From IMG/VR virus record IMGVR_UViG_2881684137_000004, positions 1 through 64,000 of that record: a DNA stretch of 64,000 bases; one strand, 5' to 3'. The number at the start of each line of letters is the position of its first letter. The first letter of the stretch is position 1. This document shows, piece by piece, positions 14,332 through 49,068 of the stretch. This DNA is from a virus (lineage: Duplodnaviria > Heunggongvirae > Uroviricota > Caudoviricetes). The notes beneath the pieces are model-generated. The model was not told where the DNA came from. It did not search any database and worked only from the letters and a program-made list of their open reading frames with translations. A program made the translations under genes and the position numbers.

Positions 14332-16610
14332 TACGAAGAGCAGCTTTCACAAGCCTCAGCGATATCAATCGAGGTCGATCTAACATAGTAGGTTGTTTTA
14401 CAACCTTCAGACCAGGCAGTCATGTGAATACTCAATAAATCTTTAGCTTTAATATCGTTTTTAACATAGATGTTAAAACTCTGAGATTGATCAATGTTTC
14501 GCTGTCGTGCCGCATTTTGCCTAACACTCCAAATTTGGTCAATCTCGTGTGCTGATTTATAAAACCAAGTTGTCTTGGAGTTTAGACTTGGGACAGTAAC
14601 AGGAATTTTATAGTTTTTCTTTTCTTCGTAATAGAGTTTATTAAAAACCGGATCAATTGAGGCTGTGCCATTAGCAAGTAATGCGGTACTGCCATTAGGT
14701 GCAACAGCCATAAGCCAACCATTTCTCATTCCCTGGCTCATAACCTGCTTTTTAAGCGCTCCCCAATCATGACGGTCATTGGTTTTATAATTTCTTCTCT
14801 CGAAGTATTTTCCAGTATTCCATTCTGAACCTTTATAAAGCGGATACGAGCCTTTCTCAATAGCTAGGTCAGAACTTGCTTTAATTGCATAATAAGCAAT
14901 TTCTTCATAAAGTTTATCGGCAAATTCTACAGCCTCTTCGCTTTCCCATCTAATACCTTTAATAGCCAAAAGCTCATTCCAAGAGAAGGTTCCCATTCCG
15001 GTTGATCTGTAATTTATATTACTCACTTGAGCTTGAAGGACTGGGATTGTGTTTTGATCGATAACATTATCAAGCATTCTCATCTGGATAGGAATTAGTC
15101 TACTTAATACATTGTCAACCACAGCTCTGCCAAGGTGGATACTTGATAGATTGCAAACAACCATATCCCCTGGCTTCTTGTGAATAATAATTTCTCCATC
15201 TTTAATATATTGCTTAGTGACAGTTGTTGGAGATTGATTATTTACGACTTCAACACACAAATTACTTGAGTAAATCATCCCTGCATGCTTATTAGGATTG
15301 GCACGATTAACAGTGTCACGATAGAACATATATGGAGTTCCAGTTTCAAGTTGGGAAACCATAATACGTTTCATGATGTCGATTGCCGCAACTTTATCTT
15401 TATTCAAATCGTTACAACGAACGCATTCTTCATATCGCTCTCTGAATTCTCCGTTTCCTTTTTCATCATCAAAAAAATCTTCAAGGCACCAACCCATAAC
15501 ACTTTTTACTTCGTGAGGATCAAAAAGATACCAGTCCGCTCTTTTCTCAACCTGCTCCATGAATAAATCTGGAAGACAAACTGCTGTAAAAATATCATGC
15601 GCTCTCTGTCTCTCATCACCATTATTTAGTTTTAAATCAAGGAATGACATAATATCTTTGTGCCACACATCCAAGTACACCGCGACCGATCCACTTCTAG
15701 TTCCTAACTGGTCAACTGATACTGCGGTGTTATTAAGCTGCCTAATCCACGGAATAACACCTGAACTGACATTTTTAAATCCTTTAATATCAGAACCTCT
15801 GCTACGAATTTTACCCACGTACGCGCCTATTCCACCGGAATTTTTTGATAAGTTTGCAATATCTGTATTAGAATCATATATTCCTTGCAAACTGTCTTCA
15901 ATAGTATCAATAAAGCAACTAGACAATTGACCATAAGACTTGCCAGCATTACTGAAGGTTGGTGTAGCCACAGTCATGTATTGGTTCGACAATGCCCAAT
16001 ACGCTTCTTTTACTAGTTCCATTCGCTTCTCTTTCTCTTCATCAGACATGAGAACGAGAGCAATGGTTAGATATCTCTCTTGCGGTAGCTCATAAATTTC
16101 TCCTGCATATCCTTTTGCAAGATATCTATCCACCAATGTCTTTAGGCCAATGTATGTAAATAGATAATCTTTCTCCGGTTCTATGTATGAATTGGCTAGT
16201 TTTATTTCTTCATTAGTATATTTTTTCAAGATGGTCTCTGAGTAGATACCCATTTCTCCAAGCTTTTTGAGAATCCCATAGTAGCTACCATATTTATCCC
16301 CAGGATCATATGAACGATTGTATCCTGCCTCTTTATAGAGTCTTTTCAGATATAGTCTAGCAGCCACATGTGTCCATTCCGTCTCGGATGTTGTAATGTT
16401 ATCCAAAGCATTGAGGACAAGTTTATTGCTAATTTCAGATGCTTTAATTTCTTTCTGAGAAAGAATAGATTTAATTGTTCTCTCACTAAGATTATCCGAT
16501 TGAAGATTAGGAAAATCGGACATAACTTTTTCTACATGCCTCACTAACCTTTGTTCATCGAATTCTAATTTCTGAATCTGCGACTTTCTGTCTTTTAACA
16601 CTTGTGTCAA
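14331..16610 (-). CDS. nrdE: ribonucleotide reductase class Ib alpha subunit
   Basis: 759 aa. Catalytic NLC.E region and C-terminal CESCSS redox Cys pair. No intein or intron apparent. Confidence 0.9.
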   Translation of the reverse strand: MTQVLKDRKSQIQKLEFDEQRLVRHVEKVMSDFPNLQSDNLSERTIKSILSQKEIKASEISNKLVLNALDNITTSETEWTHVAARLYLKRLYKEAGYNRSYDPGDKYGSYYGILKKLGEMGIYSETILKKYTNEEIKLANSYIEPEKDYLFTYIGLKTLVDRYLAKGYAGEIYELPQERYLTIALVLMSDEEKEKRMELVKEAYWALSNQYMTVATPTFSNAGKSYGQLSSCFIDTIEDSLQGIYDSNTDIANLSKNSGGIGAYVGKIRSRGSDIKGFKNVSSGVIPWIRQLNNTAVSVDQLGTRSGSVAVYLDVWHKDIMSFLDLKLNNGDERQRAHDIFTAVCLPDLFMEQVEKRADWYLFDPHEVKSVMGWCLEDFFDDEKGNGEFRERYEECVRCNDLNKDKVAAIDIMKRIMVSQLETGTPYMFYRDTVNRANPNKHAGMIYSSNLCVEVVNNQSPTTVTKQYIKDGEIIIHKKPGDMVVCNLSSIHLGRAVVDNVLSRLIPIQMRMLDNVIDQNTIPVLQAQVSNINYRSTGMGTFSWNELLAIKGIRWESEEAVEFADKLYEEIAYYAIKASSDLAIEKGSYPLYKGSEWNTGKYFERRNYKTNDRHDWGALKKQVMSQGMRNGWLMAVAPNGSTALLANGTASIDPVFNKLYYEEKKNYKIPVTVPSLNSKTTWFYKSAHEIDQIWSVRQNAARQRNIDQSQSFNIYVKNDIKAKDLLSIHMTAWSEGCKTTYYVRSTSIDIAEACESCSS

Positions 16611-23842: not shown

Positions 23843-23896
23843 TTAATAATATATATGAAGGAGAACGAACGTTTCACGCTCTCCTTCGAAAATTTA

Positions 23897-24622
23897 CTAT
23901 GAATTATTTACAACATGCTTTTGAACATTATAAATATCGGATCGTCCAGCACTATGAGCATACACTTGACTTTTACGTGTTTTATGTCCCAGTGTTGTGC
24001 CTTCTTTAAATACAGGATCTTTATGAACTTTTTTAGTCTTCACAGTTTCAATTGAACCAGGATTCTTCCAGATATTCATGATCCAGTGCGGTTTAAAAGG
24101 ATCTTTTAATACTTCTGTCCACCTCTCTCCATAACATAATTGCAACAGTTGTGTTTGTGTGGGATTGTTTATTCCCTTCATTTCAAAATAGCTTTTTAAC
24201 AATTCATGAAAATTTTTAAGTGCTCCACCTTCTGGACGCATAAACATCACTGATGAAACTGATGCCCGAATCTCTGTTGTATAGTATTTTTCGTCAATGA
24301 AGTTATTTATTATTGCAGCTCCAGACTCAAAATCTATATTCCCATCAATTAAACCAAAACGTATTATACAAGTTGAGCCCACATGCATAAATTTTTCAGT
24401 GTTAGGATTAAATATTATAAAATTGTACTTCAATGAACAGTTATGACATAAACAGCATTTATTTTTAAATCGGTCTGAAGTTTTATCAACTATATCTTCC
24501 AGTTGCCACTCCCTCTTAGCTTCATCAAAAGTAGAACTTTTGCAATTAATAACTAAGCGATTTACAACTGAAGAGTTAGGCGACTTCAACTCAATCTTAT
24601 CGTTCACATTAACTCTAACCAC
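23897..24622 (-). CDS. hypothetical protein
   Basis: 241-aa ORF, first gene after an intergenic promoter region. Confidence 0.55.
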   Translation of the reverse strand: MVRVNVNDKIELKSPNSSVVNRLVINCKSSTFDEAKREWQLEDIVDKTSDRFKNKCCLCHNCSLKYNFIIFNPNTEKFMHVGSTCIIRFGLIDGNIDFESGAAIINNFIDEKYYTTEIRASVSSVMFMRPEGGALKNFHELLKSYFEMKGINNPTQTQLLQLCYGERWTEVLKDPFKPHWIMNIWKNPGSIETVKTKKVHKDPVFKEGTTLGHKTRKSQVYAHSAGRSDIYNVQKHVVNNS

Positions 24623-24737
24623 TTTAAACTGATTCCTTTTAATATTGCATCACACTCCATAATAAGAATATGCGTTCGTTTGGAACACAATTCCATATTA
24701 TCATATAATACAACATATAGCAACAGGTAGAATATAT

Positions 24738-24888: not shown

Positions 24889-25344
24889 TCATTTTCCTTC
24901 CAATTTGTAAAGGGTAACTTCATAATCTTCGAATACCTCAGCTATTATACCCTTTACTACATTCCAATCAGCTCCACCTCGATCAGAACCAATTTTATAA
25001 GGAAGTGCTACTGAATAATTATGTCTTTTAGCAAAAAATTTGAGATCCGTTAACGTTGCTTTTAAAGCAGACAGATCGGTGAATTGCTTTCCATAACCAT
25101 AACCATCTTGAGCAAAGAGATTTGCAACAATTTTGGAGTAATTGTCCACTGCTGTGAACTGACATTTTCCCAGTATTTTTGGAGAGTGCATCTCTATAAA
25201 AGCTTTATATGTAACAAGCAAATCACTATACTTGTCACTAAGCTGTTTAGCAACACCGGAACCCATTACACCCTTACAGTTTACTTGATGGCCAATAATA
25301 TCTTCAGTTGCCTGTAATAAATCACCTTCTATAAGTTTTATCAA
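24889..25344 (-). CDS. macro domain protein (ADP-ribose binding / ADP-ribosyl hydrolase family)
   Basis: IEGDLL...HQVNCKGVMGSGVA matches the macrodomain G-D-I...N...GGGV motif pattern (cf. YmdB/MacroD). Confidence 0.75.
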   Translation of the reverse strand: MIKLIEGDLLQATEDIIGHQVNCKGVMGSGVAKQLSDKYSDLLVTYKAFIEMHSPKILGKCQFTAVDNYSKIVANLFAQDGYGYGKQFTDLSALKATLTDLKFFAKRHNYSVALPYKIGSDRGGADWNVVKGIIAEVFEDYEVTLYKLEGK

Positions 25345-43882: not shown

Positions 43883-44110
43883 TTAAAACTCTGCATCATC
43901 ATTTGGGGGATGATCGAGAATCATTAAGCCATAATACCCTACAACTCTCCACTCGGAATGAGCCTCGATTAGAAATATACTTTCAACATTGTTTACACCA
44001 GCATCCAATGTGTATTCTGGGAACGCATTACTGTAGGCCTTAATCATCTGCTCTATAAGTGACAAGTCAGGCATTTTACTGAAACCTCCAGAATTTTTTT
44101 GAATTTCCAC
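43883..44110 (-). pseudogene. truncated paralog (C-terminal fragment) of the ATP-grasp-like gene 41922..42587
   Basis: QKNSGGFSKMPDLSLIEQMIKAYSNAFPEYTLDAGVNNVESIFLIEAH aligns with QNYSGDFTKMPDINLINKMIRNYTYSPAAYTIDVGLNDIEGTFLIEIH. GTG start immediately after an in-frame stop. Confidence 0.45.
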
Positions 44111-44177
44111 TCAGTTATATTCTGTTAAACCATGGCAAGCAGCTATCTACCCCTCTCTTTAAAAAAGGATATTTATC

Positions 44178-44792
44178 TCAATACAATTCCTTTAAAAGTT
44201 CTTCGCATTCATCAATTAAACTTTTTCTACCATCCTGTATATATTTCCTTATTGAGTCAGCCTGACATGATACACTCTTTCCTTTGAAGACATCGTTGTA
44301 GTCGTCAAATAGTTTTAGGTAATCTACCAATTCAGGATGCTGATCAAGATATTTAATCCATAGTAAATGATACCACTGATGAATTAGTTCTTTTTTGTAT
44401 GGTTTGTTGTTAATAATCGCATAGTCAAAATCTATTCCTTTAATCGAATTTACGTATTTCATCTTTTTGGACCAATTTGATTTTATAGAAATATTTTCAA
44501 GATTGTCATTAACATTAAATCCTTTTGATAACTGATAATGAAACTCTATATAATCCTCTTTACCAAAAGCTTCGACATTGGCTCCAAACGCTGAGAATCG
44601 TTGATCACCACAGGTTGAACACTCTAATACAATTTTATAAGTATGATCTTTTGGTAACTCTTCTATGTATTTAATCATAGCTTCTTTTCTTGTGAAACAT
44701 TTTCTATTTACATATTTATCTTCTTTGTAAGAATACACGTTGATTCCTTTTTTGTCAAACTCTATTTTATTTATTCTATCGATTCTGATCAC
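44178..44792 (-). CDS. hypothetical protein
   Basis: 204-aa ORF. Its 3' end is the template for the decayed copy at 43141-43260. Confidence 0.55.
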   Translation of the reverse strand: MIRIDRINKIEFDKKGINVYSYKEDKYVNRKCFTRKEAMIKYIEELPKDHTYKIVLECSTCGDQRFSAFGANVEAFGKEDYIEFHYQLSKGFNVNDNLENISIKSNWSKKMKYVNSIKGIDFDYAIINNKPYKKELIHQWYHLLWIKYLDQHPELVDYLKLFDDYNDVFKGKSVSCQADSIRKYIQDGRKSLIDECEELLKELY

Positions 44793-44845
44793 TTCCTTTT
44801 CTTCTTATATAGTGTATAATTGGATAATATTACTTTTGGGAGGAA

Positions 44846-45367
44846 TTGAAATACTTAATGAAAGATAAAGTTAAGGGCTTAGTAGTGGGTCTATCAATTG
44901 GCTTAATGTTTAGTGGTGCAGTTGCCTTAGCAGCTGACTATAGAACCACAATTCAACCAATGTTTAAAGAATTAAATTTTTACTTTAATGGTGATCTTAA
45001 AGTTATTGATGAAGCAATTGCACACAATGGAACCACCTACGTGCCGGTCAGAACTATTGCAAAAGCAGTAGGCACTACAGTAAAACCGGATTTTGATCGA
45101 CAAAGTATCTACTTAGGAAAAGAACCTAAAAACAAAGGGCTGACACTAGAACAAGCTATGAGTAAAGTTTGGAACAAATATAAGAACGAGCTTCCTCCTA
45201 GCTATAAGTATATGATGCTAGATAGCTTAACTGAAACAGGTGAATACAGAATAAAGATTTATGCAGTTGTAATTGATGACTATAAGACAGGATTGTCACA
45301 TACCACCACATATAATTTTTATGATGTAAATAAACACACAGGGAAAATAACTCCTGAATTCGATTAA
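44846..45367 (+). CDS. secreted protein with N-terminal signal peptide (plus-strand moron)
   Basis: MKDKVKGLVVGLSIGLMFSGAVALAADY signal sequence. GTTYVPVRTIAKAVG resembles copper-amine-oxidase N-terminal-like cell-wall domains. RBS GGGAGG. Confidence 0.6.
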   Translation: MKYLMKDKVKGLVVGLSIGLMFSGAVALAADYRTTIQPMFKELNFYFNGDLKVIDEAIAHNGTTYVPVRTIAKAVGTTVKPDFDRQSIYLGKEPKNKGLTLEQAMSKVWNKYKNELPPSYKYMMLDSLTETGEYRIKIYAVVIDDYKTGLSHTTTYNFYDVNKHTGKITPEFD

Positions 45368-45377
45368 TCAAGTCTCT

Positions 45378-45411
45378 GGACGATCAAACTTCATCGCGGT
45401 TTTGATCGTCC
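45378..45411. terminator. stable hairpin between convergent genes (no clear U-tract)
   Basis: GGACGATCAAA-loop-TTTGATCGTCC. Confidence 0.4.
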
Positions 45412-45433
45412 ATTGTCCCACATAAATGGCTAA

Positions 45434-45769
45434 TTAGATTAATCTTGCTCCTGTTACCTCAGTAAAATCTACCCACTCATACCCCTCACTAAAGTTAATT
45501 CTAAATTTCTTACTGTGACTTGAAATTTGAGAAACTGTTCCACTTATCATCCTGTCTCCATAAAGTGTAAACAAATTAACTTCAATCCCAAACCCCTCAA
45601 GATAGGAATCGCTTATACTTCGAAGAATAATCTCCCATTCATCTTCATGTATAATTGGTTTGCTACGCTTCTTATGGTTTTCCTGGCTTTCATTTATACG
45701 CTCTTTGTGCTCAGGCAACATCATCCGCGATGATTCCCAAAGGCCATTACCAGTGAGTTTCTTGCTCAT
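45434..45769 (-). CDS. yolD: YolD-like protein (partner of the Y-family polymerase)
   Basis: MLPEHKE motif and size (111 aa). Immediately downstream of the Y-family polymerase gene and overlapping it, as in B. subtilis uvrX-yolD / yqjW-yqzH. Confidence 0.7.
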   Translation of the reverse strand: MSKKLTGNGLWESSRMMLPEHKERINESQENHKKRSKPIIHEDEWEIILRSISDSYLEGFGIEVNLFTLYGDRMISGTVSQISSHSKKFRINFSEGYEWVDFTEVTGARLI

Positions 45770-47013
45770 TTATAATGACCTCCGATCTTAGCGTTCCTGT
45801 CTAGAGCCTGACCTGCTGCTGTCAAGGAACTGGCGCGTAAAATTGACACTTCCCCGAACCTGTCTTTGATTCCATCCATTGCTTTATCTACTTGCATTTT
45901 CTTTTCTGTGTTAGAAAACAATGATAGTTGATAAACCTCAGTACTAGACAAATTAGAAAGGGAAACACCGATTCTTCTAACTGGCTTTGTGTCCCAGTGT
46001 TGATAAAACAGTTTCTTAACAGCTGCGTAGACATCAACTGTCACGTTTGTGGGATCGATAAACTTTACCTGTCTGCTAAACCCTGTTGGATTATCCCAGT
46101 CTGCTCCTGAGCATCCTAGCGACACTACAGAGGCCATTAAACCTTTTTGACGAGTTCTTCTGCATACTTGTGTCACTAAATCTAAAATCACTGTCTCTAT
46201 CTCCCACGCTTCTTTGTAATCCCTAGGAAGAGTCATTCCATTGCCAATCACCTTTTGATTACTGTGAGTGCCTGGTGTTACTGGGGAGTCATCGTATCCA
46301 TTAGCTACTCGCCAAATAACCTGCCCATTTACTCCCCATTTGCTTAATCTTTTTATAGGTGTTTTTGCTAAATCACCAATAGTGCGTATTCCCATTCGAA
46401 GCAAATGCTTTTCCATCCTAGAACCAATTCCCCACATGTCACGGATAGGATTACTCCAAATGTGTTTATCCAGCTCATCTTTGTGTAATTGAAATATCCC
46501 ATTCTTATTTTTTTTGGCAATCATGTCACAGCACAATTTTGCAATCACTTTATTTTCACCGATTCCACATCTGGCAAAAACTCCAGTTTCAATCATTATT
46601 TTATTTTGAATTTGTCGTGCAACATCCTCAATAGAATTGCCAAATAAATGCATGGAACCCGTACAGTCAATAAAAAGCTCATCAATACTATACGGCTCAA
46701 CCAAATCGCTGAATGACTCAAGAATATCATTAATATGCATCGACACATCGATATACAATTGCATCCTTGGCCGCACAATCACTAAATCAGGACATTTCTT
46801 TGTTGCCTGCCATAATGCTTCAGCAGTAGTAACTCCAAAACTTTTGGCAAGTGGGCATGCGGCCAATATAATACCTGATCTTCTTTCAGGATCTCCAGCA
46901 ACCACAAGAGGCTTATGCTGAAATTCCGGATGTCGAACTTTTTCCACCGATGCATAGAAACTTTGCATGTCAATTAACATTATCGAACGTTTAGTTCTGT
47001 GTGTCATTAACAT
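45766..47013 (-). CDS. uvrX: Y-family (UmuC/DinB-like) translesion DNA polymerase (cf. SPbeta UvrX, YqjW)
   Basis: LIDMQSFYASVE...DELFIDCTG..., IMPB/MUCB/SAMB family motifs. 415 aa. Confidence 0.9.
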   Translation of the reverse strand: MLMTHRTKRSIMLIDMQSFYASVEKVRHPEFQHKPLVVAGDPERRSGIILAACPLAKSFGVTTAEALWQATKKCPDLVIVRPRMQLYIDVSMHINDILESFSDLVEPYSIDELFIDCTGSMHLFGNSIEDVARQIQNKIMIETGVFARCGIGENKVIAKLCCDMIAKKNKNGIFQLHKDELDKHIWSNPIRDMWGIGSRMEKHLLRMGIRTIGDLAKTPIKRLSKWGVNGQVIWRVANGYDDSPVTPGTHSNQKVIGNGMTLPRDYKEAWEIETVILDLVTQVCRRTRQKGLMASVVSLGCSGADWDNPTGFSRQVKFIDPTNVTVDVYAAVKKLFYQHWDTKPVRRIGVSLSNLSSTEVYQLSLFSNTEKKMQVDKAMDGIKDRFGEVSILRASSLTAAGQALDRNAKIGGHYK

Positions 47014-47024
47014 TCCTCCACCTT

Positions 47025-47038
47025 AGAACATTTGTTTG
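47025..47038. promoter_or_regulatory. LexA (DinR) Cheo box 1
   Basis: AGAACATTTGTTTG versus consensus CGAACATATGTTCG (12/14), 12 nt upstream of the polymerase start codon. Confidence 0.55.
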
Positions 47039-47046
47039 GTAATGTT

Positions 47047-47080
47047 ATTATACTACAAACATACGTTCCTTATGCAAGAG
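47047..47080 (-). promoter_or_regulatory. sigma-A promoter of the uvrX-yolD operon (TTGCAT ... TATAAT)
   Basis: Minus strand TTGCAT, ~18-19 nt spacer, TATAAT, then RBS GGTGGAGG and ATG. Confidence 0.5.
47056..47069. promoter_or_regulatory. LexA (DinR) Cheo box 2
   Basis: CAAACATACGTTCC versus CGAACATACGTTCG (12/14), lying in the promoter spacer. Confidence 0.55.
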
Positions 47081-47210
47081 AAATTTTATGGAAATATATA
47101 CAATTAATAATTTGTCTCCCATAAAGCATTTACAAATTTTGATTAACCTCTAACTAATTATATGTGTTATAATATGTACACAACACTAATAGAAAATACG
47201 GTGATCTATT

Positions 47211-47462
47211 ATGGTAAAAATTATTTTCACTAAACATGCGAAGTTGAGATGTAAACAGCAAAATATTAATATGGAAATCTTAACAAATGAACTTACAAAA
47301 ATTCCACCAGGGCATGGAAAAATCACTTGGAAAACTAATAACATGACACGGGTTGGCCTTGATTTTAAGCAAAGTAACATTGCACTCGTCACAACTGTAA
47401 TCACTAAGCAAAAATATATGTCTACTATTAAAAATAAAACTGCCAAATATAATAAAGCTTAA
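47211..47462 (+). CDS. hypothetical protein (plus-strand moron)
   Basis: ORF MVKIIFTKHAKLRCKQ.... The antisense minus ORF is low-complexity. Confidence 0.4.
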   Translation: MVKIIFTKHAKLRCKQQNINMEILTNELTKIPPGHGKITWKTNNMTRVGLDFKQSNIALVTTVITKQKYMSTIKNKTAKYNKA

Positions 47463-47507
47463 GGCATATTGATTTAGTTTTTTACTCCCTTCTATGAAAT
47501 CATGTTT

Positions 47508-47768
47508 TCATACTCTGTTAGATTTTACTTCATCTATCCTATCTAGCAGTTTATTACCCAACCTACGTACTGTGACTGAATTATGATAAACCTTATCAAA
47601 CATCCTGTAAAATTCCCTATCGGCAATTACATCATATTTTGCATTATTTTCATCATAGCAAATTGCATATAATGATAACTGTCTCTTTAAGTATTCTTCC
47701 GCGTCACTTCTTGATTTGTGCCATTGTAGATCAAAGTGTTCATCTTCTCCAATTAGATATGTATACAT
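47508..47768 (-). CDS. hypothetical protein
   Basis: ORF. Confidence 0.5.
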   Translation of the reverse strand: MYTYLIGEDEHFDLQWHKSRSDAEEYLKRQLSLYAICYDENNAKYDVIADREFYRMFDKVYHNSVTVRRLGNKLLDRIDEVKSNRV

Positions 47769-47817
47769 TTGTCTCCTCTTTAAATCATGTTATTATTGTA
47801 TTAGTTATATAAAAAAT

Positions 47818-48040
47818 CGACATCTTCTCTTGACTCTAAGTGCCCCCAAACAGTTTGAGCAAAGACTAATCTGTCTCCAATGTAATCCCAAACTTCAATT
47901 TCACAAAACTCCTCTCCGTCAATATTTTCTGCATTATTTGCGTGAACAATAACGCATTTGTCTCCATTTAAAGCTGATCTAGTTCCAGCTTCAATAAGCG
48001 ACTTGGTATTTCCTCGTTTAAAAATTCATAATTAATATTG
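47818..48040 (-). pseudogene. frameshifted ORF: ATG-AAT-TTT-TAA then +1 frame continues ~70 codons (KRGNTKSLIEAGTRSALNGDKCVIVHANNAENIDGEEFCEIEVWDY...)
   Basis: RBS AAGGAG is present, but the only in-frame start of the long frame is absent. Removing one T from the T5 run restores a single ORF. Confidence 0.35.
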
Positions 48041-48074
48041 CATATACTCCTTTATCAAACAGATTTTTTATTTT

Positions 48075-48287
48075 TCATGCTTTTCTTTTCCAGACAACTC
48101 CTTCATCTTCATAGGCAAAACCTCTACTGGGAATAACATCATTGTCATTCTGGTCAATCCCAATACTGAAATTATATTGTGCTGCAAAGTCAATTACTTT
48201 AGATACTGCCCTGCCCCATATCTGATGAACAGTTAATAGGTTATCAGATGAAATCTCAATAATTTGATCACCTTTAACTACAGTCAT
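48075..48287 (-). CDS. hypothetical protein (70 aa from internal ATG)
   Basis: RBS AGGAGGTAGTGAA before ATG (MTVVKGDQ...). Confidence 0.45.
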   Translation of the reverse strand: MTVVKGDQIIEISSDNLLTVHQIWGRAVSKVIDFAAQYNFSIGIDQNDNDVIPSRGFAYEDEGVVWKRKA

Positions 48288-48303
48288 TTCACTACCTCCT
48301 TGC

Positions 48304-49068
48304 CTAGTATGCAAGAATCTTATGCATATTAATATCAATCAACATCTTATTGACTTTTTCATAATCTGGTGTTTTAGGCAGATCAGATTTTTCATATGCT
48401 GTTTTTAAATGGTTATCATATTCTTCAATCATCTTCAGAGCTTCATCAAAAGTAAACTTTCCATCTCTACAATTCAACAGTAATTCTCTGTTTCCTCTAT
48501 ATGTGCAAAAGGTACCTGTCTCAAGTATTTCAATCGCACTTGTGAGCAGTCTAACAGCATGAGAAAAGAATTTAGTGTCGTAGCCATGCTTTTCTATCAA
48601 ATCTTGTCTTCCAGTACCATTAGAATTTTTCACTTTAATCTTTTGAATTTGAGAATGTGCATAGCCTCCAAATTTGTGTTTAATTGCTTTAGACAAAAAC
48701 AAATGACGATTATTAATTAGTTGATGCCCAATAAAAGTTAATTTCATATAGTCTTGTGGTCTTAAGAATAGAATCTCAATGTTATTTGGAACCCCTGACA
48801 TTGCATCCTTTACAAATTTATTAATATGTATGATATTAACATCTGTGTCGTCCTTAGTGTTTCTAAAATTTTTACCGCCGCTGCTATTGTACTCATTAAA
48901 CGAGTTTAATCCTAGATAGTATTCAACTGGTGGAATGCAAACACCTTTATAATCTCGATCTGAGTCTTTGGTGTTTGTCCCGTATGCATAACTCCCAGTA
49001 GGCGCAAGAATAATTGTACGCTCTTCTAGCCAACCTGGAGCATCTGAATTAAGGCATAATTTATTCAT
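48304..49068 (-). CDS. nucleotidyltransferase, Pol-beta superfamily (minimal NTase fold)
   Basis: LAPTGSYAYGTNTKDSDRDYKGVC fits the hG[GS]x9-13[DE]h[DE]h NTase signature. A downstream D could complete the triad. Confidence 0.6.
   Translation of the reverse strand: MNKLCLNSDAPGWLEERTIILAPTGSYAYGTNTKDSDRDYKGVCIPPVEYYLGLNSFNEYNSSGGKNFRNTKDDTDVNIIHINKFVKDAMSGVPNNIEILFLRPQDYMKLTFIGHQLINNRHLFLSKAIKHKFGGYAHSQIQKIKVKNSNGTGRQDLIEKHGYDTKFFSHAVRLLTSAIEILETGTFCTYRGNRELLLNCRDGKFTFDEALKMIEEYDNHLKTAYEKSDLPKTPDYEKVNKMLIDINMHKILAY

What the first reader, a model, noticed from the sequence alone, without database searches (positions are those of the whole stretch)
44846..47462. SOS-controlled translesion polymerase cassette (uvrX-yolD-like) with two Cheo boxes, bracketed by plus-strand morons
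A Y-family polymerase and a YolD-like partner have a textbook promoter: TTGCAT, then TATAAT, then GGTGGAGG, then ATG. Two 12/14 matches to the B. subtilis LexA box CGAACN4GTTCG overlap the promoter spacer and the transcription start. The cassette is somewhat more GC-rich than its surroundings. It is flanked by a secreted-protein moron with a hairpin on one side and a small plus-strand ORF on the other. This fits a horizontally shuffled, host-SOS-wired mutagenesis module inside the prophage.
Basis: partly seen in the sequence, partly recalled or inferred. Interest (0 to 1): 0.55.

Follow-up and report, generated by a model that had tools for sequence, protein, structure and literature searches.

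The report
LexA-controlled translesion polymerase operon in prophage
An SPbeta-like prophage of a Paenibacillaceae bacterium carries a two-gene error-prone DNA repair operon whose promoter holds two conserved binding sites for the host DNA-damage repressor LexA; this is a well-known arrangement, so the finding is real but ordinary.

Summary
On the minus strand lie a Y-family polymerase (45766-47007) and a YolD-like gene (45434-45769) that overlap by ATGA. Upstream are TTGCAT, TATAAT, GGTGGAGG and ATG. Two Cheo-type boxes sit in the promoter, one in the -35/-10 spacer (47056-47069) and one just after the predicted start (47025-47038).

Taken alone, 12/14 matches are no rarer than chance (11 found, 9.2 expected). 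Comparison settles it. The same TTGCAT-AA-box-TATAAT-box layout recurs upstream of relatives in about 35 of 44 loci and in all 11 viral contigs. GAAC and GTTC never vary while the central four bases do.

Corrections:
- The promoter spacer is 19 nt, not the textbook 17, and this is conserved.
- The true start is the second ATG.
- Gene order is pol then yolD, the reverse of SPbeta, whose UvrX is only 37% identical.
- The GC excess lies mostly in codon positions 1 and 2, so it does not show recent import.
- The closest relatives sit in similar SPbeta-like prophages.
- The small plus-strand ORF is an orphan without support.
- The hairpin has no T-run.

LexA binding and damage induction remain untested. 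This is a new member of a known kind, of low interest.

The parts
47072..47077 (-). -35 element TTGCAT
   Evidence: Read. It is present in 20 of the 22 unique related promoters. In all 11 viral loci a -35-like element lies 8 nt upstream of box 1.
47056..47069 (-). Distal LexA (Cheo) box GGAACGTATGTTTG. It fills the 19-nt -35/-10 spacer.
   Evidence: One search gives 2 mismatches to CGAACN4GTTCG. One search gives an exact GAACN4GTTT core. Its PWM score of 17.1 is the best in the window. A box at the same place occurs in relatives.
47047..47052 (-). -10 element TATAAT
   Evidence: Read. It is conserved in all 22 unique related promoters that match the full architecture.
47025..47038 (-). Proximal LexA (Cheo) box CAAACAAATGTTCT. 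It covers about +3 to +16 of the predicted transcript.
   Evidence: Supported. Its PWM score of 16.3 is the second best in the window. The CAAAC half-site never varies across the 22 unique related promoters.
47015..47022 (-). Ribosome-binding site GGTGGAGG, 7 nt before the ATG at 47007
   Evidence: Read. The start at 47007 agrees with the 413-aa NCBI protein P0001.
45766..47007 (-). Y-family translesion DNA polymerase, 413 aa, of the YqjW/UvrX group
   Evidence: Pfam IMS, IMS_C and HHH, NF002848 and phrog_1268. Catalytic D13 and D109/E110 and steric gate Y18 align to DinB. QLSLF at 360-364 and the C-terminal tail are shared with SPbeta UvrX.
45434..45769 (-). YolD-like protein, 111 aa. Its start overlaps the polymerase stop (ATGA).
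   Evidence: PF08863 at 58.2 bits and phrog_3352. A homologue lies directly after the polymerase in 37 of 42 genome loci.
45377..45412 (.). Perfect 12-bp hairpin with a 12-nt loop, between the convergent stops of yolD and the secreted-protein gene. It is a possible two-way terminator, but it has no T-run on either strand.
   Evidence: Searches give dG of -18.5 and -20.3 kcal/mol and z of -2.0 and -2.4. It is inverted repeat I8. The terminator scan did not call it.
44858..45367 (+). Secreted 'stalk domain' protein, 169 aa. It has a signal peptide with an ALA-AD cleavage motif and a Cu_amine_oxidN1 domain. It runs opposite to the phage genes.
   Evidence: PF07833 at 26.8 bits. P0122 is identical at 169 aa, and there are only 4 homologues, all from Paenibacillus or metagenomes. 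The gene neighbours this polymerase cassette in other loci.
47211..47462 (+). 83-aa orphan ORF, divergent from the polymerase. Whether it codes for a protein is unproven. A TGnTATAAT extended -10 lies at about 47166-47174.
   Evidence: It has no Pfam, NCBIfam or PHROG match. Its only database match is itself, EBB07_28425. It has no homologue in the related loci.

Best explanation
This is a two-gene operon carried by an SPbeta-like prophage of a Paenibacillaceae host. It encodes a Y-family translesion polymerase and, translationally coupled to it, a YolD-like protein. The host SOS repressor LexA keeps the operon off.

In undamaged lysogens, LexA dimers would occupy two operators. One fills the spacer between -35 and -10 and would block RNA polymerase binding. 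The other covers about +3 to +16 and would block promoter escape. DNA damage activates RecA, LexA cleaves itself, both operators clear, and the two proteins are made.

The polymerase then docks on the beta clamp through QLSLF and copies past lesions, at the price of mutations. YolD is the proposed counterpart of UmuD and is thought to bind the conserved polymerase tail.

Shown here: the gene families, the intact catalytic and clamp motifs, the promoter anatomy, the conservation of the operators, and the prophage context. Inferred: LexA binding, damage induction, the transcription start, the role of YolD, and whether the benefit goes to the host, to the replicating phage, or to both.
For: - Families and motifs.
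- Operators match the Gram-positive LexA consensus CGAACRNRYGTTYC (PMC2248561). Both are of the GAACN4GTTT type, which PMC4234289 lists as the predicted LexA box of the C. difficile lexA, recA and ruvC promoters.
- A PWM built from relatives ranks the two boxes first and second in 64 kb.
- Phylogenetic footprint. Of 44 related loci, 35 have at least 2 core matches within 110 nt upstream. The density is 15.9 per kb there against 0.076 per kb elsewhere. GAAC and GTTC never vary, while the N4 bases and the flanks do. All 11 IMG/VR viral contigs show the same layout.
- SPbeta's yolD-uvrX promoter also carries a box inside its TTGAAT/TAATAT spacer, plus a second box.
- Literature. YqjW, UvrX and YozK-YobH were predicted to be under LexA control, and YqjW and YqjX are SOS-induced (PMC6511836). 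Listeria uvrX is used as a LexA-dependent SOS reporter (PMC9043618).
- Prophage identity.
Against: - There is no experimental evidence for this locus or this host.
- The host lexA gene and its own SOS boxes lie outside the window and could not be checked.
- Each box has 2 mismatches to the 10 specified bases, and such matches occur at chance frequency in the window.
- The distal box here is weaker than in the closest relative (GGAAC against CGAAC).
- The 19-nt spacer makes the assigned -35/-10 pair suboptimal, so the true start site is uncertain.
- All neighbouring phage genes share the same strand, so read-through during lytic growth could express the operon independently of LexA.
- The role of YolD/YqjX in polymerase function remains unresolved in B. 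subtilis (PMC13335488).
Confidence: 0.85

Rival explanations
1. The two boxes are chance matches in AT-rich promoter DNA. The operon is simply a phage gene expressed with its neighbours, with no LexA control.
For: Matches with up to 2 mismatches occur at the chance rate in the window: 11 against 9.2, and 5 against 3.6 for the core. The cassette shares its strand with the surrounding phage genes, so read-through is possible.
Against: Two of the five core matches lie 31 nt apart at exactly this promoter. Going, the chance of at least two in a given 110-nt stretch is about 2e-5. The boxes are conserved in place and core sequence across 22 distinct related promoters while the N4 bases and flanks vary. 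Density is about 200-fold higher than elsewhere in the loci.
Confidence: 0.04
2. The palindromes are operators for a phage-encoded repressor or another factor rather than host LexA. The cassette would then follow the phage lysis-lysogeny switch and not the host SOS regulon directly.
For: The proximal box has an invariant, non-consensus CAAAC half-site in all 22 unique promoters, and the unusual 19-nt spacer is conserved. Selection on features beyond a plain LexA site might produce this. All the close relatives whose context was examined are prophage-borne.
Against: The motif is the canonical Firmicutes LexA site (PMC2248561), and GAACN4GTTT is listed as the predicted LexA box of C. difficile SOS promoters (PMC4234289). 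SPbeta, Listeria and B. subtilis homologues are predicted or shown to be LexA or SOS controlled. No other repressor with this specificity is known to me, and no strong additional sites mark the regulatory regions of this phage.
Confidence: 0.06
3. The cassette is LexA-controlled, but it serves the phage. It would let the phage replicate damaged phage DNA after SOS induction, rather than acting as a host mutagenesis module.
For: The cassette lies on the same strand as the phage replication genes and about 10 kb upstream of them: helicase, DnaB, primase and YorL polymerase. It holds a comparable position in the closest related phage, L044. It is carried by 120-204 kb viral contigs.
Against: Sequence cannot tell the two beneficiaries apart. 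A LexA operator gives expression in any SOS-induced lysogen, whether or not the phage excises. PMC13335488 suggests that the SPbeta YolD-UvrX may account for higher host mutagenesis.
Confidence: 0.3

Closest known systems
Bacillus subtilis yqjW(polY2)-yqjX operon (chromosomal, SOS-induced)
   Same: It pairs a Y-family polymerase of the YqjW/UvrX group with a YolD-family protein. It is predicted to be LexA-controlled and is SOS-induced (PMC6511836). The polymerase has a clamp motif and a conserved C-terminal tail. From memory, not checked here, the polymerase gene comes first and the YolD-family gene second, as in this window.
   Different: The cassette here is prophage-borne. I could not obtain the YqjW sequence or its promoter, so identity and operator layout were not compared.
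SPbeta prophage yolD-uvrX (yolE) operon
   Same: It sits in a large SPbeta-type temperate phage. It pairs YolD with a Y-family polymerase. One Cheo box lies inside the -35/-10 spacer (TTGAAT-GA-AGAACGTTTGTTCT-GT-TAATAT) and there is a second box. The polymerases share the QLSLF motif and the C-tail.
   Different: Gene order is reversed: yolD then uvrX in SPbeta, pol then yolD here. The polymerases are only 37% identical. The YolD proteins are barely alignable, with 10 of 33 residues identical at E = 0.001. SPbeta's second box lies upstream of the -35, not downstream of the -10. In SPbeta the cassette sits beside the sublancin genes.
pol-yolD(-yhjD) cassettes of Paenibacillus SPbeta-like prophages, annotated 'DNA polymerase IV'
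   Same: The polymerase is 60-82% identical. The TTGCAT-AA-box-TATAAT-box promoter is the same, and yolD overlaps the polymerase stop. The two contexts examined are SPbeta-like prophages, and the polymerase lies upstream of the replication genes in the closest one, L044.
   Different: In the relatives whose gene context was read (the P0003 and P0030 loci), a third gene, YhjD (PF26325), follows yolD. Here it is absent, and a convergent secreted-protein gene sits in its place. The distal box here has one more mismatch than in the closest relative.
E. coli umuDC (Pol V) and plasmid mucAB/impAB
   Same: It is a LexA-repressed two-gene operon for an error-prone Y-family polymerase and a small accessory protein, often carried on mobile elements. 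The steric-gate tyrosine in the SFYAS context resembles UmuC; that resemblance is recalled from memory.
   Different: The accessory protein belongs to the YolD family, which has an SH3-like fold. It is not a UmuD/LexA-type self-cleaving protein. Gene order is reversed, and the operator is the Gram-positive GAACN4GTTC type rather than CTGTN8ACAG.

Membership tests
Y-family DNA polymerase (YqjW/UvrX group) | IMS catalytic core and little-finger (IMS_C) domains score above the curated cut-offs | tested here: met
   PF00817 scores 147.7 bits against 23.2. PF11799 scores 83.5 against 20.7. NF002848 scores 623 against 381.
Y-family DNA polymerase (YqjW/UvrX group) | Catalytic acidic residues and steric-gate residue are present | tested here: met
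   D13, D109, E110 and Y18 align with the DMD...F and SLDE motifs of E. coli DinB in the alignment; their identification as DinB D8, D103, E104 and F13 is from memory. They never vary in the alignment.
Y-family DNA polymerase (YqjW/UvrX group) | Beta-clamp-binding motif, followed by a conserved RecA-NT-like motif and C-terminal tail (Timinskas and Venclovas 2019) | tested here: met
   QLSLF at 360-364 and the ...MDxI..(F/Y)G...ILRA.S.T.AG....GGH tail are shared with SPbeta UvrX. The function of the tail is inferred from PMC6511836.
Y-family DNA polymerase (YqjW/UvrX group) | Lesion-bypass polymerase activity | not testable with these tools
   This needs biochemistry or genetics.
YolD-like protein family (PF08863) | Profile match above the cut-off, and the gene is adjacent to a YqjW/UvrX-type polymerase gene | tested here: met
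   The match scores 58.2 bits against 27.5. The gene overlaps the polymerase stop by 4 nt. The same adjacency occurs in 37 of 42 loci.
YolD-like protein family (PF08863) | Physical or functional partnership with the polymerase (a UmuD-like role) | not testable with these tools
   This is unresolved even for B. subtilis YqjX (PMC13335488). No solved structure is related by sequence.
Firmicutes LexA (Cheo-box) regulon | An operator matching GAAC-N4-GTT(C/T) or CGAACRNRYGTTYC | tested here: met
   Both boxes have an exact GAACN4GTTT core. They are the two top PWM hits in the window.
Firmicutes LexA (Cheo-box) regulon | The operator overlaps core promoter elements or the transcription start | tested here: met
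   Box 1 fills the -35/-10 spacer. Box 2 starts 8 nt after the -10. The start site itself is predicted, not mapped.
Firmicutes LexA (Cheo-box) regulon | The operator is conserved upstream of orthologues (phylogenetic footprint) | tested here: met
   35 of 44 loci have at least 2 boxes. There are 22 unique promoters with the full architecture. Enrichment is about 200-fold. All 11 viral loci show it.
Firmicutes LexA (Cheo-box) regulon | LexA binding and RecA-dependent induction by DNA damage | not testable with these tools
   No experimental data exist for this host. The host lexA gene and its own boxes lie outside the window.
SPbeta-like temperate phage | SPbeta-type replication module with a YorL-like polymerase | tested here: met
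   The 1301-aa polymerase is 57% identical to SPbeta YorL over its full length. RNR, RecJ-like, DnaB, primase and helicase genes are present.
SPbeta-like temperate phage | The cassette has the same gene order as SPbeta yolD-uvrX | tested here: not met
   SPbeta has yolD (14467-14799) and then yolE/uvrX (14792-16042). Here the polymerase precedes yolD.
Moron (self-contained accessory gene with its own promoter and terminator) | For the secreted-protein gene 44858-45367: its own promoter and a factor-independent terminator | tested here: inconclusive
   It runs on the opposite strand. A TATAAT lies at 44814-44819 but has no clear -35. The RBS lies 14 nt from the ATG. The hairpin downstream lacks a T-run.

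The most novel reading that the evidence does not exclude
The unit that moves may not be just a gene pair. It may be a complete promoter, double operator, pol and yolD module that is exchanged among SPbeta-like Paenibacillus phages. Its conserved departures from consensus would then be tuned features. These are an invariant CAAAC half-site in the proximal operator and a fixed 19-nt spacer filled by the distal operator. They could set very low basal and late SOS expression, or allow a second regulator to bind. The secreted stalk-domain protein recurs next to the cassette in two different arrangements, so it could be functionally linked to the cassette rather than a bystander.
Probability: 0.15. 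Interest if true: 0.35.

Novelty: new member of a known kind. Interest (0 to 1): 0.2.

Why it matters
The finding adds a Paenibacillaceae example, and a set of about 50 related promoters, to the known class of LexA-wired error-prone polymerase operons on Gram-positive prophages.

It has three practical uses:
1. It gives a clean comparative data set for the Paenibacillus LexA operator and for a two-operator promoter design.
2. It shows that many 'DNA polymerase IV' annotations in Paenibacillus genomes are probably prophage cargo, sometimes in several copies per genome.
3. It offers a natural system for asking whether YolD proteins matter for the polymerase, which is still open in B. subtilis.

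It does not change current understanding.

Tried and rejected
- Megablast of 44000-48500 against 50,697 phage records gave no match. Only protein-level relatives exist there.
- Exact-sequence look-ups of the polymerase, as 415 aa and as P0001, found no contig on record. The host genome around the window could therefore not be read, and the host lexA, recA and uvrB promoters could not be checked.
- The 16-18 nt promoter scan did not report the promoter, because its spacer is 19 nt. The terminator scan did not report the hairpin, because it has no T-run.
- I looked for direct or inverted repeats flanking the cassette that might mark an insertion. Only short, chance-level matches turned up.
- Rfam and tRNA scans of the whole window found nothing.
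- YolD has no relative of solved structure by sequence.
- The 83-aa ORF has no Pfam hit even at E up to 10, and no PHROG, NCBIfam or homologue. My impression that it resembles DUF4258 was not supported, and I dropped it.
- I tested GC content as evidence of recent transfer and rejected it. The excess is mostly in GC1 and GC2.
- Au et al. 2005, which lists the B. subtilis LexA sites including yqjW, is not held. The yqjW promoter was therefore not compared.
- A GAAC-N5-GTTC element in the first codons of the polymerase (46983-46997) has the wrong spacing. In relatives the CGAAC at that place falls in the conserved Arg-Thr codons. I treat it as incidental.
Full report
**What is there**

The finding spans four annotated genes. 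Identical database entries suggest NCBI locus tags EBB07_28410 to EBB07_28425, from a 'Paenibacillaceae bacterium' contig of 467,101 bp.

Two of the genes lie on the minus strand, like almost every gene of the window.
- A 413-aa Y-family DNA polymerase at 45766-47007. It matches IMS at 147.7 bits and IMS_C at 83.5 bits, plus the thumb/HHH domain. It matches NCBIfam NF002848 at 623 bits against a cut-off of 381, and phrog_1268.
- A 111-aa YolD-family protein at 45434-45769. It matches PF08863 at 58.2 bits against a cut-off of 27.5, and phrog_3352.

The polymerase stop and the yolD start overlap as ATGA, which suggests translational coupling.

The polymerase looks active.
- D13, D109 and E110 align with the catalytic motifs of E. 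coli DinB, and Y18 aligns with its steric-gate position; the DinB residue numbers D8, D103, E104 and F13 are from memory.
- A perfect clamp-binding motif, QLSLF, sits at 360-364.
- After it comes the conserved C-terminal tail that this polymerase shares with SPbeta UvrX. Timinskas and Venclovas (PMC6511836) interpret this tail as a RecA-NT-like motif plus a YolD-binding tail.

**The promoter**

On the minus strand the sequence reads as follows:
- TTGCAT at 47077-47072, then AA.
- GGAACGTATGTTTG at 47069-47056, then TAG.
- TATAAT at 47052-47047, then AACATTAC.
- CAAACAAATGTTCT at 47038-47025, then AA.
- GGTGGAGG at 47022-47015, then AATGTTA, then ATG at 47007.

The -35/-10 spacer is 19 nt, not 17, which is why the standard scan missed the promoter. 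The ORF's first ATG, at 47013, lies 1 nt from the Shine-Dalgarno sequence, so the second ATG is the start. This agrees with the 413-aa NCBI protein.

**Is it more than chance?**

On their own, no. Matches to CGAACN4GTTCG with up to two mismatches occur 11 times in the window against 9.2 expected. The core GAACN4GTTY occurs 5 times against 3.6 expected.

However, two of those five core matches lie 31 nt apart at this one promoter. At the rate seen, the chance of two or more in a chosen 110-nt stretch is about 2e-5. That figure is my own arithmetic.

I also built a PWM from 42 unique sites taken only from related loci. It ranks the two boxes first and second among all positions of the 64-kb window, at 17.1 and 16.3 bits. 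Three of 30 shuffles reached 16.3 once, and none reached it twice.

**Phylogenetic footprint**

This is the decisive evidence. A scan of one genome per species returned 42 loci. Nearly all are Paenibacillus, with polymerases mostly 60-79% identical. IMG/VR returned 11 viral contigs, all but two of 120-204 kb. Exact look-ups of two close relatives added four more loci.
- In 35 of 44 loci, at least two core matches lie within 110 nt upstream of the polymerase.
- Match density is 15.9 per kb in that stretch and 0.076 per kb in the rest of the loci.
- Thirty-three loci, giving 22 distinct sequences, share the full architecture: TTG(C/A)(A/T)T-AA-box-2/3 nt-TATAAT-3..12 nt-box.
- GAAC and GTTC never vary, while the central four bases and the inter-box DNA do.
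- All 11 viral contigs have both boxes, with the -35 element 8 nt upstream of box 1.

The motif fits the Gram-positive LexA consensus CGAACRNRYGTTYC (PMC2248561). Both boxes are of the GAACN4GTTT type. PMC4234289 lists that type as the predicted LexA box of the lexA, recA and ruvC promoters of C. difficile.

Two departures from consensus are themselves conserved. One is the CAAAC half-site of the proximal box, which never varies in the 22 unique promoters. The other is the long spacer, 19 nt in the main group and 18 nt in a second group.

**Context**

The window is a large SPbeta-like phage.
- Its 1301-aa polymerase is 57% identical to SPbeta YorL over its full length.
- It carries ribonucleotide reductase, a RecJ-like nuclease, a DnaB helicase, a primase and a second helicase.
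- The 467-kb source contig implies a prophage.

SPbeta's own cassette is only a distant cousin of this one.
- UvrX is 37% identical.
- The YolD proteins barely align.
- The gene order is the reverse, yolD then uvrX.
- SPbeta nevertheless uses the same trick: a box inside the TTGAAT/TAATAT spacer, and a second box, there upstream of the -35.

The close relatives are cassettes in other SPbeta-like Paenibacillus prophages. The 82% and 69% relatives sit among small same-strand genes that include Phage_SPbeta_YorH and Mu Gam or Sipho_Gp157. In the 82% relative, L044/L045, the polymerase also lies upstream of homologues of this window's helicase, DnaB and primase. In those two contexts a third gene, YhjD (PF26325), follows yolD. 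Here it is missing.

**Is it a shuffled module?**

Partly. Nucleotide similarity to relatives starts at 47084-47089 in 33 of 58 alignments. That is 7-12 nt upstream of the -35. It ends inside yolD at about 45613-45711. Nothing else in 42-50 kb aligns, apart from two tiny pieces. The conserved unit is therefore promoter, operators, pol and yolD, set among variable neighbours. No flanking repeats mark an insertion.

The GC argument is weak. The polymerase gene is 0.399 against a gene mean of 0.34 (sd 0.028). The excess lies mainly in codon positions 1 and 2: 0.469 and 0.389 against means of 0.419 and 0.304. GC3 is 0.339 against 0.296 (sd 0.046). This looks like the composition of a conserved enzyme, not a recent arrival.

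**The flanks**

The plus-strand gene on the low-coordinate side is real.
- It runs from 44858 to 45367 and is 169 aa, and its start is confirmed by an identical database entry.
- It has a clear signal peptide, KDKVK-hydrophobic-ALA/AD, seen by inspection.
- It has a copper-amine-oxidase N-terminal 'stalk' domain.
- Only four homologues exist. The gene recurs next to this polymerase cassette in L010, L029, L037 and L042, where it is divergent from the polymerase promoter. It also lies beside a 74-aa polymerase remnant in L061. It is not next to a polymerase in L059 or L060.

Between its stop and the yolD stop lies a perfect 12-bp hairpin at 45377-45412. Its dG is -18.5 and -20.3 kcal/mol on the two strands, with z of -2.0 and -2.4. 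It has no T-run on either strand, so a terminator role is plausible but not established.

The 83-aa plus-strand ORF at 47211-47462 has an extended -10 (TGTTATAAT) and a weak RBS. It has no family, no homologue except itself, and it overlaps an equally long antisense ORF. Whether it codes for a protein cannot be decided.

**Mechanism**

The best explanation is a LexA-repressed operon. One LexA dimer in the spacer would exclude RNA polymerase, and a second at about +3 to +16 would block escape. RecA-stimulated LexA cleavage after DNA damage would release both. The polymerase would then be recruited by the clamp for lesion bypass, with YolD as a possible UmuD-like partner.

This matches published predictions that YqjW, UvrX and YozK-YobH are LexA-controlled, the reported SOS induction of YqjW and YqjX (PMC6511836), and the experimental LexA dependence of Listeria uvrX (PMC9043618). 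The role of YolD remains unsettled in B. subtilis (PMC13335488). LexA binding, induction, the start site and the beneficiary (host or phage) are inferred here.

**Verdict**

The arrangement is a known kind, seen here in a new host family. Interest is low.

Noticed in passing
window 24665-24678 (minus strand CGAACGCATATTCT): This is the fourth-best LexA PWM hit in the window, at 14.9 bits. It lies at about +11 to +24 of a good TTGCTA-17 nt-TAATAT promoter (24723-24695). That promoter sits upstream of a 241-aa Cys-rich ORF of unknown function (23897-24622, minus strand). It could be a second SOS-wired phage gene. The score is not significant alone, because several shuffles reach it. No homologue was available to test conservation.
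   Followed up: partly
window 23862-23875: This is the third-best PWM hit, AGAACGAACGTTTC, at 15.0 bits. It sits in the loop of an 8-bp hairpin (GAAGGAGA...TCTCCTTC), just after the stop of ORF 23897-24622 and before the next minus-strand ORF. It is probably a terminator-like hairpin and the match a coincidence.
   Followed up: no
window 46983-46997 (minus strand AGAACTAAACGTTCG): A GAAC-N5-GTTC element lies in codons 4-8 of the polymerase. The spacing is wrong for LexA. In relatives the CGAAC at this place comes from conserved Arg-Thr codons. It is likely incidental.
   Followed up: partly
window 44858-45367; loci L010, L029, L037, L042, L061: The rare secreted stalk-domain protein has only 4 homologues in the large protein database. 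It keeps turning up beside this polymerase cassette. In other Paenibacillus loci it is divergent from the polymerase promoter, and twice it lies next to truncated polymerase remnants. Here it is convergent, downstream of yolD. This could be shared ancestry or a functional link. It is unexplained.
   Followed up: partly
loci L044-L047 (11544-11927 in L044) compared with window 45377-45434: The relatives whose context was read carry a third gene, YhjD (PF26325), right after yolD. The window cassette lacks it, and the hairpin and the convergent secreted-protein gene sit there instead.
   Followed up: partly
window 44178-44792 (minus strand): A 204-aa protein matches the DarT1-associated NADAR antitoxin domain (PF22397, 34.4 bits against a cut-off of 27). 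No DarT toxin was seen nearby. It might be a phage counter-defence enzyme that removes ADP-ribose from DNA. An ORF at 24889-25344 has relatives with a faint Macro-domain hit.
   Followed up: no
window 48304-49068 (minus strand): An RlaP-type nucleotidyltransferase of the RNA repair pathway family (PF10127, E = 1.7e-18; phrog_388) lies about 1.3 kb upstream of the cassette. Relatives carry an RNA ligase or a DNA ligase in the same neighbourhood. This hints at a nucleic-acid repair gene cluster in these phages.
   Followed up: no
loci L002, L025, L028, L042 (Paenibacillus glacialis DSM 22343): One genome carries four copies or remnants of this polymerase cassette on different contigs. Other species carry two. 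Many 'DNA polymerase IV' annotations in Paenibacillus are therefore probably prophage cargo.
   Followed up: no
window 47211-47462 (plus strand): An 83-aa lysine-rich ORF is annotated in the source genome (EBB07_28425). It has no relative among 5.8 billion clustered proteins, apart from itself.
   Followed up: yes
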